Virus record (IMG/VR): IMGVR_UViG_3300011947_000002
Location: 1 to 64,000 of that record
DNA: 64,000 bases
DNA from: a virus
Lineage: Duplodnaviria; Heunggongvirae; Uroviricota; Caudoviricetes
Reading direction: 5' to 3' (one strand)
In this document: in pieces, positions 50,929 to 56,364 of the stretch
How the letters are laid out: each line of letters begins with the position of its first letter
Numbering within the stretch: position 1 is the first letter of the stretch
Translations under genes and position numbers: made by a program
Notes under the pieces: model-generated
Told to the model about the DNA's origin: nothing
Databases searched by the model: none
Seen by the model: only the letters and a program-made list of their open reading frames with translations

Positions 50929-52947
50929 TTATTCTATTTCAACAGGGGATACTATATAACTTCTACCGTTAAGCATCGCATCGTCATTGACTACCACACT
51001 AACAGTATATGGATATCTATTAGTATACTTAAACACGCCATCTATTTCACTTGACTTTAATTTCTCTAGAAGTCTACCAGTATGATGATCATATATTAAT
51101 ATAGTTGTACTAACCCCAATATTATTTAATGTGATAATACCAGACGATTCATAGATTAAAGTGTTGGAATTTAGATCATCAACAACCAATCTGCTTACCG
51201 CCTTTGGTGCATAAGCTAATAATGCTAACTCAAAACTAAGACCAACTAAGTGTGGTAAACCATTGCCAAATACACTATATTTTAATGGTGTGCTTTCATA
51301 TGCGCCGCTAGAAATATTATAAACTTGTTGACCATTTATATATATAGTTAAATATGCACTACTATCTGATATTAAAATATGATGGAATTCGCCGTTATTA
51401 TAACCGTTTAATTCTTTTCTTATTTCACTTCCATACCACAACTGTAATGTACCATTTTTAAAATAAAATAATAAATTTTTATTATTTGATGTGGTTTTAG
51501 AAAATGAATATAATAATCCATTCATATCCGTCGTTTTAAAAAAGAATGATAATGAATATGTATTATCTTTAATTAATCTATATTGGTCTGAACCATAATA
51601 ATGAAAATACGGCATATCATACAACATAGACTTTTTGGAAAATTTTATCGAATATTCAATATTACCATCCATATATCTTTTTACAGTAAATCCATTATAT
51701 GGATCATCACTACTTGGCCGCAAACTATTATTAACATTATCCCCAATAATAGAAGTTAATTTATTATCCTCCTGAATATGATTTGTAGCATCAAGATCAT
51801 ACCATTCACTAAAATCATATAATTCAGTAAAACCAGATTTAGTATATAAAGATTTCATATCATAGTGCAAAGCATGATAACGGCGTATTTCACTTTTACT
51901 TAATGTTCTATTAAACACCGCAAAATTGTCGAATTGCAAATCATATCTATTCGAATAAATGCGTCGTAATCTTCCGTTCACATAATCTTCATATCCAGTT
52001 GCTTGACCAACCCCCATTGGTAGAACATCTGTATCCATGCCTGTCACAAAGCCTAATTTTAAGCTATTCCTTAATTCTTGTGGAAATGGATACATCACAT
52101 TATGAGTGTATTCATCCTCCATATTATCAACGTATACTTTTATAATAATTCTATCTTCAATATTATGAGTGACCACAAACGCAATTGAATAAGTTTTATT
52201 TAATGATACTGCAATGTTATTCACAAATTCTATATCAACATTTGGATTTGCTTCTTGATAGAATTTAAGAGTAATATATTCATTTATAGTTTTTTCGATA
52301 GTAAATCCGATATCTAGAAACCTAAATGATTCTATCCTTTTATAATTATCTTTTAATGGTCGATTAAATATACCGAATACTTGAGGGATTGATGTATCAA
52401 TGGGGAAACCATTGAAATCTACTGGGGGTAGGGGTTGTGATGTTTCTGGATCATACCTTGGAATCATTTCTTCAAGACATACTTCACCTAAAGAATGAAC
52501 ACCCCCCATATCTTGAATTTTAATTTGCATCATTACTGTATATTCAGTACCAATAAGATCGATCAATTCTTTATTTACTGATGGTATTAAAATAGGACGT
52601 GAATATTCATTCAGTTTAATATTTCTAGTCTTTCGTACATAACGATCACCTTGATATTCATATTCATAATATATATCTGAATAATTACCAGTGATAGACT
52701 TAGATGTTGAATATGATCTATATCTTGAAATTTTTTCAGCTATACTATGTGCATATGATGTTGGATCATCATAATCACTAATAGTATTATAAAATGATGT
52801 TTGTGAGGGAGTGATAAATGGAAAGTCATAAGCTGTTTTATTAAAGAAGTAATAAACACCTTCGACTTCCATTGTATCTGGCCTATCAAATGTATAATAT
52901 GCTACAGGCCCCAAGGATTCTAAATACTTACCAGCACCACTACTCAC
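50929..52947 (-). CDS. large structural protein with predicted concanavalin/LamG-like domain and C-terminal carboxypeptidase-regulatory-like beta-sandwich (672 aa)
   Basis: HILISDSSAYLTIYINGQQVYN (LamG_3-like). C-terminus TTILIYDHHTGRLLEKLKSSEIDGVFKYTNRYPYTVSVVV. Confidence 0.45.
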   Translation of the reverse strand: MSSGAGKYLESLGPVAYYTFDRPDTMEVEGVYYFFNKTAYDFPFITPSQTSFYNTISDYDDPTSYAHSIAEKISRYRSYSTSKSITGNYSDIYYEYEYQGDRYVRKTRNIKLNEYSRPILIPSVNKELIDLIGTEYTVMMQIKIQDMGGVHSLGEVCLEEMIPRYDPETSQPLPPVDFNGFPIDTSIPQVFGIFNRPLKDNYKRIESFRFLDIGFTIEKTINEYITLKFYQEANPNVDIEFVNNIAVSLNKTYSIAFVVTHNIEDRIIIKVYVDNMEDEYTHNVMYPFPQELRNSLKLGFVTGMDTDVLPMGVGQATGYEDYVNGRLRRIYSNRYDLQFDNFAVFNRTLSKSEIRRYHALHYDMKSLYTKSGFTELYDFSEWYDLDATNHIQEDNKLTSIIGDNVNNSLRPSSDDPYNGFTVKRYMDGNIEYSIKFSKKSMLYDMPYFHYYGSDQYRLIKDNTYSLSFFFKTTDMNGLLYSFSKTTSNNKNLLFYFKNGTLQLWYGSEIRKELNGYNNGEFHHILISDSSAYLTIYINGQQVYNISSGAYESTPLKYSVFGNGLPHLVGLSFELALLAYAPKAVSRLVVDDLNSNTLIYESSGIITLNNIGVSTTILIYDHHTGRLLEKLKSSEIDGVFKYTNRYPYTVSVVVNDDAMLNGRSYIVSPVEIE

Positions 52948-52978
52948 ATTAATAACCTTAAAATAATTTTATAATTAT

Positions 52979-53719
52979 TTAGGCTTCATGTTTTAAGCGC
53001 AATTCTAACTCATTAATTGTAATTTGTTCTATAACACCAGTATCTTTATTTTTAACAGTAACAAGCGTATTTACATCTACACAGTTTACAGACTTTCCAC
53101 GAATTGAACTAGATGAAGCAGCAGCCGAAATAACTTTAGATTTATTACCTAATTCAATCGTTCCCTTATTCCAAGTCTTCACACCCATCTGTAAGAACCA
53201 AGGAAGTTCTTCATACATAAGCTTCATACGGCTTAGAATCTCGCGTGACGAATCCATTTTATTCGCTAGTACCGCAATAGTATATTCTTCATTAAAGATC
53301 ATCTGGTGCACTAGATAAGCCGCTACGACGGTAGTATTGTGTGATAAAATCCCATTAGTATAAAACTTATGATGATATTCCATTTGAAAGTCATACATAC
53401 ATTCTTTTTCATCTGTCTTCTCAACAGATACAACAACAGACAACCCATCATCTGTTTTAATGAATGTTCCCACTGAAATATCTTTAACATATAATTCATT
53501 GTCACATTCATCAATTATAATATGATTATCAGCACACTTTAGTTCATATCCATTTTCCAGTTTAATATTATAAACATCATACTCTATAGTCTTCATTATA
53601 TTTTTTAATGGAATAAAACCAATATCTGTTTTAATATCAATATCTGAAACGGTTTTAATAGTTTTAAATTTTTTAATGTTATTCATGTTTTTATTCCCAA
53701 GGCACATCTTCATACTCAT
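52979..53719 (-). CDS. terminase large subunit fragment: split-intein C-half (IntC1) + Walker A/N-terminal ATPase extein + split-intein N-half (IntN2)
   Basis: Extein TTVVAAYLVHQMIFNEEYTIAVLANKMDSSREILSRMKLMYEELPWFLQMGVKTWNKGTIELGNKSKVISAAASSSSIRGKS aligns with T4 gp17 (SRQLGK)[27 protein letters not shown]...[39 protein letters not shown]. It is preceded by Hint blocks B/F/G (KCADNHIIID ... ECMYDFQMEYHHKFYTNGILSHN|T) and followed by block A CVDVNTLVTVKNKDTG then a stop. Confidence 0.8.
   Translation of the reverse strand: MSMKMCLGNKNMNNIKKFKTIKTVSDIDIKTDIGFIPLKNIMKTIEYDVYNIKLENGYELKCADNHIIIDECDNELYVKDISVGTFIKTDDGLSVVVSVEKTDEKECMYDFQMEYHHKFYTNGILSHNTTVVAAYLVHQMIFNEEYTIAVLANKMDSSREILSRMKLMYEELPWFLQMGVKTWNKGTIELGNKSKVISAAASSSSIRGKSVNCVDVNTLVTVKNKDTGVIEQITINELELRLKHEA
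52982..53083 (-). other. IntN2: 34-aa N-terminal split-intein fragment CVDVNTLVTVKNKDTGVIEQITINELELRLKHEA
   Basis: Block A C-x3-T-x-V...G immediately after extein ...GKSVN. The ORF then stops. Confidence 0.75.
53084..53335 (-). other. TerL extein segment 2 (84 aa; second half of P-loop through strand preceding Walker B)
   Basis: See alignment to T4 gp17 residues ~167-250. Confidence 0.75.
53336..53719 (-). other. IntC1: C-terminal half (~117-128 aa) of an atypical split intein, ending ...ILSHN
   Basis: Blocks B (ELKCADNHIIID), F (ECMYDFQMEYHHKFYTNG) and G (ILSHN) with +1 Thr. No block A. The N-terminal boundary is uncertain (Met at 1/3/5/12), and the first 29 nt overlap the end of the upstream 629-aa gene. 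Confidence 0.75.
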
Positions 53720-55580: not shown

Positions 55581-55593
55581 TTCTATACCATTA

Positions 55594-56364
55594 TCATTTT
55601 ATAGTAATATTTATATCATTTACATAGGCAATAACATTATCAGTGCTTTTATTAAATTTATTATATAATTTCTCAATTTCAACCTTGTTGCCATCAATAT
55701 CTAAAATTGTATCACCAGAAACACAATTCATTTCCTGTTCAATAGCCGTCGAACTCATAGATTCACACATGGTGTCATACCACTTCTGATCACGTTCAGG
55801 ATTTTCATACCACTTCACATCATATGGAACATAAGCACTACGACCATCTTCAGCTTCAACCCACATTTTGTAAAAATAATTCATTCCTAATGGTGTACTG
55901 GTAATAATTACTTTGGTCTTGTCCGATGAGGAAATAGTCGGGAAAACAGATTCATAGAATGCTTCTACGTTTGGAATAAATGCAATTTCATCAATATATA
56001 AACAATTTCTTATTAAAATCAATAACTTATCTTTACCATCCGTTATAAAGAACCTATTTCCATTAAACACATGGAGAATATCATATACTGATTTAGATAT
56101 CGTTTTTGAAATATTAGTTATTATCTTATTACCATCTTGTGTATAAACACTATCACCCACCTTTAATGTTGATGATTTAACGTATTCATTTGGACTGATG
56201 TATATTTCGTGGTCAGGGGTAACTGTGATAGAAGTATTTTCAATCATTAATTCCAATGTATCATGATTTGATGCTGTTTTTGTCACTCCAACAAAATCAG
56301 AAAATCCTGAATCTGTTAGAATCTTGAATCTACCATTATTTCTAGCAAAGTGTTTATCACTCAT
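55594..56364 (-). CDS. terminase large subunit fragment: split-intein C-half (IntC2) + Walker B/ATPase-core extein + split-intein N-half (IntN3)
   Basis: Extein CLYIDEIAFIPNVEAFYESVFPTISSSDKTKVIITSTPLGMNYFYKMWVEAEDGRSAYVPYDVKWYENPERDQKWYDTMCESMSSTAIEQEMN aligns with T4 gp17 [66 protein letters not shown]...SSLAQFRQEHT. It is preceded by the 120-aa Hint C-half (ITVTPDHEIYI block B ... VYDILHVFNGNRFF ... LILIRN|C) and followed by CVSGDTILDIDGNKVEIEKLY... then a stop. Confidence 0.8.
   Translation of the reverse strand: MSDKHFARNNGRFKILTDSGFSDFVGVTKTASNHDTLELMIENTSITVTPDHEIYISPNEYVKSSTLKVGDSVYTQDGNKIITNISKTISKSVYDILHVFNGNRFFITDGKDKLLILIRNCLYIDEIAFIPNVEAFYESVFPTISSSDKTKVIITSTPLGMNYFYKMWVEAEDGRSAYVPYDVKWYENPERDQKWYDTMCESMSSTAIEQEMNCVSGDTILDIDGNKVEIEKLYNKFNKSTDNVIAYVNDINITIK
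55597..55725 (-). other. IntN3: 43-aa N-terminal split-intein fragment CVSGDTILDIDGNKVEIEKLYNKFNKSTDNVIAYVNDINITIK
   Basis: Canonical block A (C-V-x-G-D-T-x-L/V-x-x-x-D-G). From memory it closely resembles the published AceL-TerL IntN (CVYGDTMVETEDGKIKIEDLYKRLA). Confidence 0.75.
55726..56004 (-). other. TerL extein segment 3 (93 aa; Walker B LYIDE + TSTP coupling motif region)
   Basis: See alignment to T4 gp17 residues ~251-345. Confidence 0.75.
56005..56364 (-). other. IntC2: 120-aa C-terminal half of an atypical split intein (ends ...LILIRN, +1 Cys)
   Basis: Block B TSITVTPDHEIYI, SPNEYVKSSTLKVGDSVYTQDG, block F-like SVYDILHVFNGNRFFITDG. Terminal Asn with unusual penultimate Arg. No block A. 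Confidence 0.7.

What the first reader, a model, noticed from the sequence alone, without database searches (positions are those of the whole stretch)
50929..56364. TerL fragments are non-collinear and interleaved with large LamG-type structural genes
In transcription order on the minus strand the promoter-proximal gene (56364-55594) carries the later TerL segment (Walker B). It is followed by a 629-aa LamG-like gene, then the earlier segment (Walker A, 53719-52979), then 672-, 778- and 479-aa fibre-like genes. Known 'fractured genes' (gp41, NrdJ etc. in marine phage metagenomes) are separated by homing endonuclease genes and stay collinear. Here the intervening genes are large virion proteins and the order is permuted. 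The 3' end of the 629-aa gene overlaps the first 29 nt of the IntC1 reading frame.
Basis: seen in the sequence. Interest (0 to 1): 0.75.

Follow-up and report, generated by a model that had tools for sequence, protein, structure and literature searches.

The report
Scrambled split-intein terminase gene pieces
Two middle pieces of a phage DNA-packaging enzyme gene (TerL), each flanked by halves of self-splicing protein elements (split inteins), sit in reversed order inside a tail/baseplate gene operon, and the layout is conserved in a whole clade of very large phages, so the enzyme is most likely stitched together at the protein level regardless of gene order.

Summary
ORF 55594-56364(-) is IntC + TerL Walker-B segment + IntN. 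ORF 52979-53686(-) is IntC + the preceding TerL segment + IntN. A 629-aa LamG gene lies between them, and the later segment is transcribed first. The two exteins, joined in silico, align without a gap (57% identity) to residues 91-266 of an uninterrupted TerL.

It is not a misassembly. The same order occurs in at least 9 independent contigs (42-85% aa identity), three of them 300-393 kb. It is not decay either: intein and ATPase catalytic residues are invariant, and exteins are more conserved than inteins.

The inteins are of the known atypically split AceL-TerL/Cat type, with an IntN of 34-43 aa and an IntC of about 120 aa. Other environmental T4-like phages carry the same three split sites collinearly, next to the sheath gene.

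Synteny with Stenotrophomonas phage Moby shows the LamG operon is ancestral and the TerL pieces are the immigrants.

What appears new is the dispersal, the order inversion and the absence of homing endonuclease genes between the pieces. The N-terminal (Walker A) and nuclease pieces are not in the window, and I could not locate them in relatives. Trans-splicing is therefore inferred, not shown. I rate it a new variant of a known kind.

The parts
55594..56364 (-). TerL piece 3 (256 aa). IntC2 = aa 1-120 (nt 56005-56364, ends ..LILIRN). Extein 3 = aa 121-213 (nt 55726-56004), starting with the +1 Cys then LYIDEIAF (Walker B and catalytic Glu). IntN3 = aa 214-256 (nt 55597-55725, CVSGDTIL..).
   Evidence: Pfam Terminase_6N positions 100-203 and phrog_2. 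Aligns to T4 gp17 251-321 (3ezk_A), and IntC2 matches the CatC intein 6dsl_B at E=6e-6. There are 49 homologues of 166-282 aa, 43 of them 245-282 aa. Among 38 aligned: T49 37/38, H52 38/38, N120 29 N and 9 Q, C121 38/38, D125/E126 38/38, C214 38/38.
53691..55580 (-). 629-aa LamG/ConA-like protein, presumed virion (baseplate or fibre module), lying between the two TerL pieces.
   Evidence: Pfam Laminin_G_3 at 36.5 bits (cut-off 27.6) and phrog_31125 at 2.4e-85. Full-length homologue of Moby CPT_Moby_225, annotated 'putative structural protein', and present in 21 Stenotrophomonas, Xanthomonas, Acidovorax and Variovorax phage records.
52979..53686 (-). TerL piece 2 (235 aa from the likely start M12; the longest ORF starts at 53719). 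IntC1 = nt 53336-53686 (ends ..GILSHN). Extein 2 = nt 53084-53335 (TTVVAAY...IRGKSVN, from the Thr of Walker A GKT to just before Walker B). IntN2 = nt 52982-53083 (CVDVNTLVTV.., 34 aa).
   Evidence: Pfam Intein_splicing and Terminase_6N positions 11-99; phrog_5989 at 1e-28. Aligns to T4 gp17 166-260. IntC1 matches VidaL 6vgv, the gp41-1 intein and CatC. In 9 clade members the block-B His, LSHN|TT and N|C are invariant, and all start at the M12 equivalent.
50929..52947 (-). 672-aa LamG-domain protein, next gene of the same operon.
   Evidence: Pfam Laminin_G_3 at 31.8 bits. Conserved in this position in all clade loci.
48567..50903 (-). 778-aa repeat-rich protein; its C-terminal part is orthologous to Moby gene 231.
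   Evidence: tblastn against the Moby locus, E=8e-18. Conserved downstream position in the clade.
47137..48576 (-). 479-aa protein, orthologue of Moby gene 232; the last large gene of the operon.
   Evidence: phrog_29085 at 2e-36. tblastn against Moby, E=6e-28.
46150..46644 (+). Free-standing SegE-type GIY-YIG homing endonuclease gene flanking the operon. It is context and a possible agent of rearrangement, not located between the TerL pieces.
   Evidence: Pfam SegE_GIY-YIG at 8.8e-33. Conserved at this place in clade loci and in Moby.

Best explanation
The phage's terL gene exists as at least four separate cistrons created by three atypically split inteins: site 1 inside Walker A (GK|T), site 2 immediately before Walker B, and site 3 at the end of the ATPase domain.

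The window holds the two middle cistrons, IntC1-extein2-IntN2 and IntC2-extein3-IntN3. In this clade they have been moved out of the canonical terL locus into the start of a conserved late baseplate/fibre (LamG) operon. They sit there in inverted order with no homing endonuclease gene between them.

After translation, each short IntN (34-43 aa) docks into its cognate long IntC (about 120 aa). Three mutually specific trans-splicing reactions then ligate the exteins in the correct N-to-C order and regenerate a seamless TerL. Gene order is irrelevant because order is set by intein pairing, so the scrambled layout is tolerated and has become fixed.

Shown here: the domain anatomy, the exact extein junctions, conservation of catalytic residues, conservation of the layout across a clade, and homology of IntN2 + IntC2 to the two ends of one contiguous intein.

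Inferred: that splicing actually happens, that the three pairs are orthogonal, that pieces 1 and 4 exist elsewhere in the genome, and that relocation happened by recombination (possibly endonuclease-assisted) from a collinear ancestor.
For: Anatomy.

The joined exteins 2+3 align with zero gaps to residues 91-266 of an intact TerL (57% identity, E=2e-70).

The IntN2 + IntC2 concatenation matches the N- and C-ends of a single contiguous intein at the same site in the L278 TerL (E=7e-42 for the C part plus extein, 4e-4 for the N part).

IntC2 aligns to CatC from its residue 6, which is the same split point as the experimentally active AceL-TerL/Cat class (activity as reported in PMC11766414).

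Catalytic residues are invariant and exteins (73% mean pairwise identity) are more conserved than inteins (42-45%) across 38 homologues. The same holds for piece 2.

The same frag3-LamG-frag2-LamG order is found in the window, L004/L014 (381 kb), L015, L022 (299.7 kb), L106 (392.9 kb), L108, L357 and L359, with partial views in L011-L013. Divergence is down to 42-56% identity.

Collinear precursors exist at the canonical locus upstream of the sheath gene: L186 and L163 (all of sites 2 and 3 split), L276, L278, L024 and L025.

The LamG operon is syntenic with Moby, which has an intact TerL elsewhere.

IntC1 and IntC2 share only 33% identity, which is compatible with orthogonality.
Against: The N-terminal piece (Walker A + IntN1) and the nuclease piece (IntC3 + Terminase_6C) are not in the 64-kb window. 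They are also not within 10 kb of the pieces in any clade locus, and my attempts to find them in the 381-kb relative failed for technical reasons. Completeness of the system is therefore not demonstrated, and an intact second terL elsewhere is not excluded.

IntC2 has Arg/Lys instead of the usual penultimate His, and 9 of 38 homologues end in Gln instead of Asn. These are non-canonical but known variants.

There are no expression or protein data. A single-sequence AlphaFold model of fused IntN2+IntC2 was uninformative (pLDDT 32.5).
Confidence: 0.75

Rival explanations
1. The fragments are decaying relics of an old terL copy, and a complete functional terL lies elsewhere in the genome.
For: Pieces 1 and 4 were not found, and the rest of the genome (probably 300-390 kb) could not be inspected.
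Against: There are 49 piece-3 homologues, 43 of them intact ORFs of 245-282 aa. Walker B D-E, the intein Cys1, the +1 Cys and the block-B Thr/His are invariant, and exteins are more conserved than inteins. Piece 2 behaves the same way. The layout is conserved at 42-56% identity, which is far beyond the lifetime of a pseudogene.
Confidence: 0.06
2. Assembly chimera or misjoin across 52.9-56.4 kb.
For: None beyond the unusual order.
Against: The same order occurs in at least 9 independently assembled contigs from JGI, ENA, NCBI and Logan samples.
Confidence: 0.01
3. The LamG genes were inserted into an ancestral terL locus, for example replacing homing endonuclease genes between collinear pieces, followed by a local inversion.
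For: In collinear relatives, endonuclease genes or domains sit exactly where intervening genes could be swapped (L276, L278, L163, L186).
Against: The genes around the pieces (gp4, gp2, tube paralogue, SegE, gp48, gp53, gp5, LamG 225, 231, 232) are syntenic with Moby, where terL is about 29 kb away. The canonical neighbours of terL (gp13-15, sheath, tube, portal), seen in L024, L025, L276 and L278, are absent here. A simple insertion cannot invert the order.
Confidence: 0.08
4. The pieces are expressed but work as non-covalently associated subunits. Intein halves would act only as dimerisation modules, or only some junctions would splice.
For: Fragmented phage enzymes assembled without splicing are known (title of PMC3045599, seen: a fragmented RNR assembled by interaction domains). 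IntC2 lacks the penultimate His, and 9/38 end in Gln.
Against: The nucleophiles (Cys1, +1 Cys/Thr), the block-B His and the terminal Asn/Gln are conserved, which is not expected if only binding mattered. The same intein class splices in vitro (PMC11766414). Sites 1 and 2 cut through the P-loop and directly before Walker B, where a continuous backbone is likely to be needed (inference).
Confidence: 0.08

Closest known systems
AceL-TerL, GOS-TerL and Cat atypically split inteins (Thiel et al. 2014 and follow-ups; summarised in PMC11766414; structure 6dsl)
   Same: Naturally split inteins in T4-type TerL from metagenomes, with a short IntN (25-37 aa) and a long IntC (104-115 aa) and Cys1/Cys+1. 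IntC2 here aligns to CatC from residue 6 (E=6e-6/2e-6). IntN lengths here are 34 and 43 aa, and IntC is about 117-120 aa.
   Different: Those were described as single split sites and used as tools. Here three such inteins cut one protein, two cistrons carry an IntC and an IntN at once, and the cistrons are dispersed and out of order. From memory (not tested here), AceL-TerL sits at the site I call site 3 (C-extein CEFL..).
'Fractured genes' (Dassa et al. 2009, PMC2677866), including one gp17 terminase locus from Lake Gatun
   Same: A phage enzyme gene broken by a split intein into separate ORFs on the same strand, under purifying selection.
   Different: The defining layout there is N-part, free-standing homing endonuclease gene, C-part, collinear and adjacent. 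Here there is no endonuclease gene between the pieces, a 629-aa structural gene intervenes, and the order is inverted.
Collinear multi-split TerL of uncultured T4-like phages found here (L186, L163, L278, L276, L024, L025, L018)
   Same: The same three insertion sites, the same intein families and the same IntC-extein-IntN cassette proteins: a 227-aa piece 3 in L186 and a 261-aa one in L163. About 16 of the best 150 cluster representatives have the piece-2 architecture.
   Different: In those, the pieces lie head-to-tail at the canonical locus just upstream of the tail sheath gene, usually with GIY-YIG, Vsr-like or HNH endonuclease genes or domains between them.
Cyanobacterial DnaE split intein (dnaE-n and dnaE-c far apart on opposite strands) and the Nanoarchaeum split PolB. 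Cited from my own knowledge, not checked here.
   Same: Split-intein gene halves that are not adjacent in the genome and are rejoined by trans-splicing.
   Different: These are two pieces with one intein, so 'order' has no meaning. They are cellular genomes, and the intein split site is the canonical one (long IntN, short IntC).
Jug jumbo gut phages (PMC12880540): T4-like, 360-402 kb, 27-30% GC, terL in 2-3 fragments
   Same: T4-like huge phages of similar size and GC content with a fragmented terL and many homing endonucleases.
   Different: Their terL fragments are separated by group I introns, are co-transcribed and are rejoined at the RNA level. No Rfam family reached threshold in this window, and the pieces here carry intein halves. 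Whether this clade overlaps the Jug phages was not determined.
Campylobacter phage CP21 (Firehammervirus) TerL
   Same: CP21_125 contains N-extein, intein 1, extein 2 and an IntN2-like tail, and matches piece 2 over 93% of its length (39.5% identity). It is followed by a 421-aa hypothetical gene and a separate C-terminal terminase ORF, CP21_127.
   Different: It is collinear, intein 1 is contiguous, and the pieces remain at one locus.

Membership tests
Intein (HINT) splicing domain, class 1 | N-terminal nucleophile (Cys/Ser1) at the start of the IntN part | tested here: met
   IntN2 starts with Cys (N|CVDVNT), invariant in 9/9. IntN3 starts with Cys214, 38/38.
Intein (HINT) splicing domain, class 1 | Block B TxxH motif | tested here: met
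   IntC2 has T49-P-D-H52, with T 37/38 and H 38/38. IntC1 has A-D-N-H with the His invariant, but the Thr position is Ala.
Intein (HINT) splicing domain, class 1 | C-terminal (His)-Asn followed by a +1 Cys/Ser/Thr | tested here: met
   IntC1 has SHN|T, invariant. IntC2 has R/K-N|C, with N in 29 and Q in 9 of 38 and the +1 Cys in 38/38; the penultimate His is absent.
Intein (HINT) splicing domain, class 1 | Protein splicing activity | not testable with these tools
   No expression or proteomic data. The AF2 model of fused IntN2+IntC2 was uninformative.
Atypically split intein (AceL-TerL/GOS-TerL/Cat class) | Short IntN (about 15-45 aa) and long IntC (over 100 aa) on separate polypeptides | tested here: met
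   IntN2 is 34 aa, IntN3 43 aa, IntC1 117 aa and IntC2 120 aa.
Atypically split intein (AceL-TerL/GOS-TerL/Cat class) | Sequence homology to the family, with the same split point | tested here: met
   IntC2 against CatC 6dsl_B: E=6e-6, query 3-108 against chain 7-105; the fused query aligns from CatC residue 6. IntC1 against CatC: E=1.3e-4; against VidaL: 6e-8.
Atypically split intein (AceL-TerL/GOS-TerL/Cat class) | Cognate partner fragment present | tested here: inconclusive
   The IntN2/IntC2 pair is present in the window and matches the two ends of one contiguous intein. The partners of IntC1 (IntN1) and of IntN3 (IntC3) were not found.
Fractured gene sensu Dassa et al. 2009 | Conserved enzyme gene broken by a split intein into separate ORFs on one strand | tested here: met
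Fractured gene sensu Dassa et al. 2009 | Free-standing homing endonuclease gene between the two halves | tested here: not met
   The intervening gene is a 629-aa LamG protein with no endonuclease domain. The nearest endonuclease gene is at 46150-46644, outside the pieces.
Fractured gene sensu Dassa et al. 2009 | Pieces adjacent and collinear (N part upstream of C part) | tested here: not met
   Piece 3 (Terminase_6N positions 100-203) is upstream of piece 2 (positions 11-99). This is conserved in the clade.
T4-type large terminase (Terminase_6N + Terminase_6C) | ATPase core with Walker B and the catalytic Glu | tested here: met
   LYIDE in piece 3, with D125/E126 in 38/38. Aligns to gp17 251-321.
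T4-type large terminase (Terminase_6N + Terminase_6C) | Walker A P-loop (..RQxGK[T/S]) | tested here: not met
   Only the final Thr is present in the window. There is no ORF with the GK-Cys-intein motif, and no N-terminal TerL match.
T4-type large terminase (Terminase_6N + Terminase_6C) | C-terminal RNase H-like nuclease domain | tested here: not met
   No tblastn match in the window to eight TerL C-terminal queries at E<=1.
LamG / concanavalin A-like lectin superfamily | Pfam Laminin_G_3 above the gathering score | tested here: met
   The 629-aa protein scores 36.5 bits and the 672-aa protein 31.8 bits, against a cut-off of 27.6. The 778-aa and 479-aa proteins have no hit.

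The most novel reading that the evidence does not exclude
The dispersal may be functional rather than a neutral accident. Placing two obligatory TerL pieces at the head of the baseplate/fibre operon would make formation of the packaging ATPase depend on expression of that late operon. This would be a protein-level AND-gate that couples DNA packaging to tail-gene expression. Alternatively, it could protect terL from replacement or hijacking by homing endonucleases, or delay the appearance of a TerL fold that host sensors recognise.

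On this reading it would be a natural four-input protein assembly whose order is encoded only in three orthogonal intein pairs.
Probability: 0.1. Interest if true: 0.85.

Novelty: new variant of a known kind. Interest (0 to 1): 0.62.

Why it matters
If the inference holds, this is a natural protein made from at least four cistrons by three tandem trans-splicing reactions, with the cistrons dispersed and out of order in the genome. It would show that split inteins free gene pieces from collinearity, a protein-level counterpart of scrambled or permuted genes.

The layout has been stable across a deep clade of 300-390-kb phages. Three practical consequences follow.

- **Phage annotation and phylogeny.** TerL is the standard marker for phage detection, phylogeny and completeness estimates. 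In this clade, standard pipelines would see only about 90-aa extein stubs flanked by intein halves and would miss or mis-place terL.
- **Protein engineering.** The clade offers sets of co-evolved, presumably orthogonal, atypically split inteins with short IntN tags, which is the type wanted for multi-segment ligation.
- **Intein evolution.** The series from intact TerL, through collinear split TerL with endonuclease genes, to dispersed pieces without endonuclease genes is a concrete model of how intein-fractured genes evolve after the endonuclease is lost.

Tried and rejected
**Search for the missing TerL pieces.**
- In the window and in all clade loci: tblastn with Kuja, CP21, L005, L007, L008 and L016 TerLs and with piece-1 and piece-4 proteins, plus regex scans for GK-Cys-intein starts. 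Nothing was found.
- In the 381-kb IMG/VR relative: scans with C-terminal profiles (A3, A6), the N-piece/IntN1 profile (A8) and the L024 capsid protein.
- The A5 profile was too diverse to use.
- The genome-contig scan did not contain the NCBI contig JAWVHF010000011.1.

**Other searches that led nowhere.**
- Exact look-up of the window's own proteins: not on record.
- Megablast of 16 kb against phage genomes: no match.
- IMG/VR scans with distant piece-2-type proteins P0338 and P0297: no hits.

**Regulatory and RNA checks.**
- Promoter/terminator scan and the T4 late-promoter motif TATAAATA: no more than chance, 16 found against 23 expected.
- Rfam and tRNA scans: nothing, so there is no evidence of group I introns here.

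**Structure.** The AlphaFold2 model of fused IntN2+IntC2 without an alignment had pLDDT 32.5 and was unusable. No fold search was run.

**Misreading corrected.** I first read the early tblastn hits to IME-SM1, Moby and ACP17 as intein-containing TerLs. Their TerLs are in fact uninterrupted.

Full report
**1. What is in the window**

On the minus strand a tightly packed gene string runs from 56364 to 46853. It contains ORF A (55594-56364, 256 aa), a 629-aa gene (53691-55580), ORF B (52979-53719 as the longest ORF), then genes of 672, 778, 479 and 95 aa.

ORF A matches Pfam Terminase_6N positions 100-203 (E=1.7e-9). ORF B matches positions 11-99, together with Intein_splicing. Both hit PHROG terminase large subunit families. 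The 629-aa and 672-aa proteins pass the Laminin_G_3 gathering score. The 778-aa and 479-aa proteins have no Pfam domain.

Read residue by residue, the two ORFs have this structure.
- ORF A: IntC (aa 1-120, ..LILIRN), then Cys-LYIDEIAF... (Walker B segment, aa 121-213), then IntN (CVSGDTIL.., 43 aa).
- ORF B: IntC (..GILSHN), then TTVVAAY...IRGKSVN, then IntN (CVDVNTLV.., 34 aa).

Against solved structures, the exteins align to T4 gp17 residues 166-260 (ORF B) and 251-321 (ORF A). The IntC parts match the CatC consensus TerL intein (6dsl_B), VidaL and the gp41-1 intein.

**2. Corrections to the observation**

ORF B does not contain Walker A. Its extein begins at the Thr after the P-loop GK, so the intein sits inside Walker A and the GK lies on a piece that is absent from the window.

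The 29-nt overlap with the LamG gene depends on the longest-ORF start. All eight orthologues begin at the Met equivalent to M12 (ATG at 53686, 4 nt after the LamG stop codon).

**3. The pieces fit together exactly**

Joining extein 2 to extein 3 in silico gives 177 aa, 176 of which align to residues 91-266 of the uninterrupted TerL of an IMG/VR phage (L008). The alignment has 57% identity and no gap, including across the junction RGKSVN|CLYIDE (E=2e-70).

Concatenating IntN2 (the tail of ORF B) with IntC2 (the head of ORF A) reproduces the two ends of one contiguous intein. That intein occupies the same site in the 740-aa TerL piece of another uncultured T4-like phage, L278. The two halves are therefore cognate.

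IntC2 aligns to CatC from CatC residue 6. The split point is thus the atypical one of the AceL-TerL/GOS-TerL/Cat class (short IntN, long IntC), whose members splice in vitro according to PMC11766414.

IntC1 and IntC2 are only 33% identical.

**4. Not an artefact and not decay**

The order piece 3, LamG (~629 aa), piece 2, LamG (~670 aa), large protein, ~500-aa protein recurs in independent assemblies:
- IMG/VR contigs of 381 kb (L004/L014) and 25 kb (L015);
- NCBI JAWVHF010000011.1, 299.7 kb (L022);
- an ENA sewage scaffold of 392.9 kb (L106);
- Logan contigs of 52.9, 77.5 and 40.6 kb (L108, L357, L359);
- three short contigs with partial views (L011-L013).

These phages are deeply diverged. 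Pairwise identity is 42-70% for piece 3, 53-85% for piece 2 and 39-75% for the LamG protein.

A protein-database search found 49 piece-3 homologues of 166-282 aa; 43 of them are 245-282 aa. In an alignment of 38 of them:
- the block-B Thr and His are 37/38 and 38/38;
- the +1 Cys is 38/38;
- Walker B Asp-Glu is 38/38;
- Cys1 of IntN3 is 38/38;
- the terminal residue of IntC2 is Asn in 29 and Gln in 9.

Mean pairwise identity is 73% in the extein, against 42% and 45% in the two intein parts.

Piece 2 shows the same pattern in nine clade members: the block-B His, LSHN|TT and N|C are invariant.

This is purifying selection on both ATPase and splicing residues. It rules out the pseudogene-relic reading for the fragments themselves.

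**5. Which genes are the intruders**

The 629-aa LamG protein has full-length homologues in 21 records of Stenotrophomonas, Xanthomonas, Acidovorax and Variovorax T4-like phages.

In Stenotrophomonas phage Moby it is gene 225, the first of a cluster of ConA-like 'putative structural proteins'. That cluster follows the baseplate genes gp48, gp53 and gp5.

The window has the same neighbourhood:
- gp4 head-closure protein, gp2 end protector, a tail-tube paralogue and a SegE-type GIY-YIG endonuclease on one strand;
- gp48, gp53, a tail protein and gp5 on the other;
- the 778-aa and 479-aa proteins, which are orthologues of Moby 231 and 232.

Moby has no TerL pieces there, and its uninterrupted terL lies elsewhere. 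The structural operon is therefore ancestral, and the TerL cistrons moved into it.

**6. Where the arrangement came from**

Splitting TerL at these sites is common in uncultured T4-like phages.

A profile of the TerL C-terminal domain retrieved dozens of ~350-390-aa proteins of the form IntC + nuclease domain.

A profile of the N-terminus retrieved stand-alone N-pieces ending in ..RQxGK-C + a ~35-aa IntN.

An exhaustive HMMER search with piece 2 found 357 cluster representatives at E<=1e-30. Most of the best 150 start with IntC1. About 16 are 234-297 aa proteins with the full IntC1-extein2-IntN2 architecture, eight of which I checked by eye.

In the loci I could read, the pieces are collinear and lie at the canonical position between the neck/TerS genes and the tail sheath gene.
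- L025 and L018: site 3 only.
- L276: sites 1 and 3, with a Vsr-like endonuclease gene between pieces.
- L278: sites 1 and 3 split, plus a contiguous intein at site 2.
- L163: sites 2 and 3.
- L186: all three sites split; a 227-aa IntC2-extein3-IntN3 cistron sits directly between its partners, and a GIY-YIG domain is fused behind IntN2.

In L024 (a 306-kb phage), piece 1 is already missing from the locus.

The window's clade is thus a derived state with the same cassettes, in which pieces 2 and 3 are displaced, inverted in order and stripped of endonuclease genes.

**7. What is missing**

No N-terminal TerL piece (with Walker A GK and IntN1) and no nuclease piece (with IntC3) is present in the 64-kb window. 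None lies within 10 kb of the pieces in any clade locus.

I could not retrieve them from the large relatives. Collection scans were saturated by other T4-like phages, and contig look-ups are limited to 10 kb around a known protein.

The following therefore remain inferences: that the clade has exactly four pieces, that there is no additional intact terL, and that splicing occurs.

**8. Mechanism proposed**

The four or more cistrons are translated separately. Pieces 3 and 2 are probably made from the late LamG operon transcript: the intergenic gaps are 13, 4 and 31 nt, and no terminator-like site above chance was found.

Each short IntN then inserts into its cognate long IntC to complete a HINT fold. 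Three class-1 splicing reactions follow, using Cys1 with +1 Thr at site 1 and +1 Cys at sites 2 and 3. They ligate the exteins into a continuous T4-type TerL.

Correct order is dictated by pair specificity, not by gene order. This is why an inverted and dispersed layout is tolerated.

Relocation probably occurred by recombination from a collinear ancestor once each cassette was an autonomous cistron. The neighbouring SegE-type endonuclease is a candidate helper, but that is speculation.

**9. Comparison with the literature**

Dassa et al. 2009 define fractured genes as N-part, endonuclease gene, C-part, on one strand and in order. They list one gp17 locus.

AceL-TerL and GOS-TerL are described as rare natural atypical split inteins.

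Jug jumbo gut phages (T4-like, 360-402 kb, 27-30% GC) have terL in 2-3 fragments, but these are caused by group I introns that are co-transcribed and RNA-spliced. No Rfam family reaches threshold in this window.

Eight full-text searches found no description of dispersed or order-inverted split-intein pieces of TerL, or of a natural protein with three split inteins. The library is incomplete, so this is absence of evidence only.

**10. Verdict**

The inteins, the insertion sites and multi-splitting are known or common, while the dispersed, order-inverted, endonuclease-free arrangement embedded in a structural operon and fixed in a clade of huge phages appears undescribed.

I classify it as a new variant of a known kind, with interest 0.62. 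Confidence in the trans-splicing explanation is 0.75.

Noticed in passing
window 5116-7047 (+): The family-B DNA polymerase ORF (643 aa) covers only the N-terminal half of the phage PolB profile (phrog_262 positions 5-491 of 856; exonuclease domain plus the start of the polymerase domain). It ends without any intein motif, and no C-terminal half follows it. A 631-aa PolB N-half is also called in relative L022. The polymerase therefore also seems to be a split gene, but without a split intein at this end.
   Followed up: partly
window 46150-46864 (+): A SegE-type GIY-YIG homing endonuclease gene (8.8e-33) is followed by an overlapping gp49/66-family gene. They sit next to a degenerate tail-tube paralogue (45305-46150). 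The same trio is conserved in clade loci, and the endonuclease plus tube paralogue also occur in Stenotrophomonas phage Moby.
   Followed up: partly
alignment A7 of piece-3 homologues (P0001-P0048), column of window residue 120: Nine of 38 homologues end IntC2 in Gln instead of Asn, and the penultimate residue is Lys/Arg/Asn/Ser and only rarely His. This is a non-canonical block G that might mean slow or conditional splicing at site 2.
   Followed up: no
L024 8636-11089 (also L117, IMGVR_UViG_3300033498_000048, 305,782 bp): Another huge T4-like phage has IntC1-extein2-extein3-IntN3 (449 aa) directly followed by IntC3 + nuclease (362 aa) upstream of the sheath gene. Its N-terminal piece is not adjacent. 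The upstream genes are Tet/JBP, ADDT and a P-loop kinase (a base-modification module). Dispersal of piece 1 is therefore not unique to the window's clade.
   Followed up: partly
L001 (Campylobacter phage CP21) 5494-9780: The cultured phage CP21 has a fractured TerL. CP21_125 carries N-extein, a contiguous intein at Walker A, extein 2 and an IntN2-like tail. It is followed by the 421-aa hypothetical CP21_126, an unannotated ~1-kb gap, and then CP21_127 (nuclease part). The Walker B segment is not annotated and may lie in the gap.
   Followed up: no
window 48567-50903 (-): The 778-aa protein contains a long run of degenerate ~20-residue repeats (..YGY.S.T.VIF[DN]..) and Cys-rich N-terminal motifs. 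It has no Pfam or PHROG match. Its length varies from 597 to 907 aa among clade members, as expected for a receptor-binding or fibre protein.
   Followed up: no
window 55608-55615 (-): An exact T4 late-promoter-like TATAAATA lies inside the 3' end of piece 3, 28 nt upstream of the LamG start codon. The motif is not enriched in the window (16 found, 23 expected), so its significance is unclear.
   Followed up: partly
one search hits P0050, P0065, P0069, P0070: Some metagenomic TerL pieces of 447-465 aa start with an IntC2-like domain and then run uninterrupted through extein 3 and the nuclease domain (site 2 split, site 3 intact). All combinations of the three split sites therefore seem to exist in nature.
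   Followed up: no
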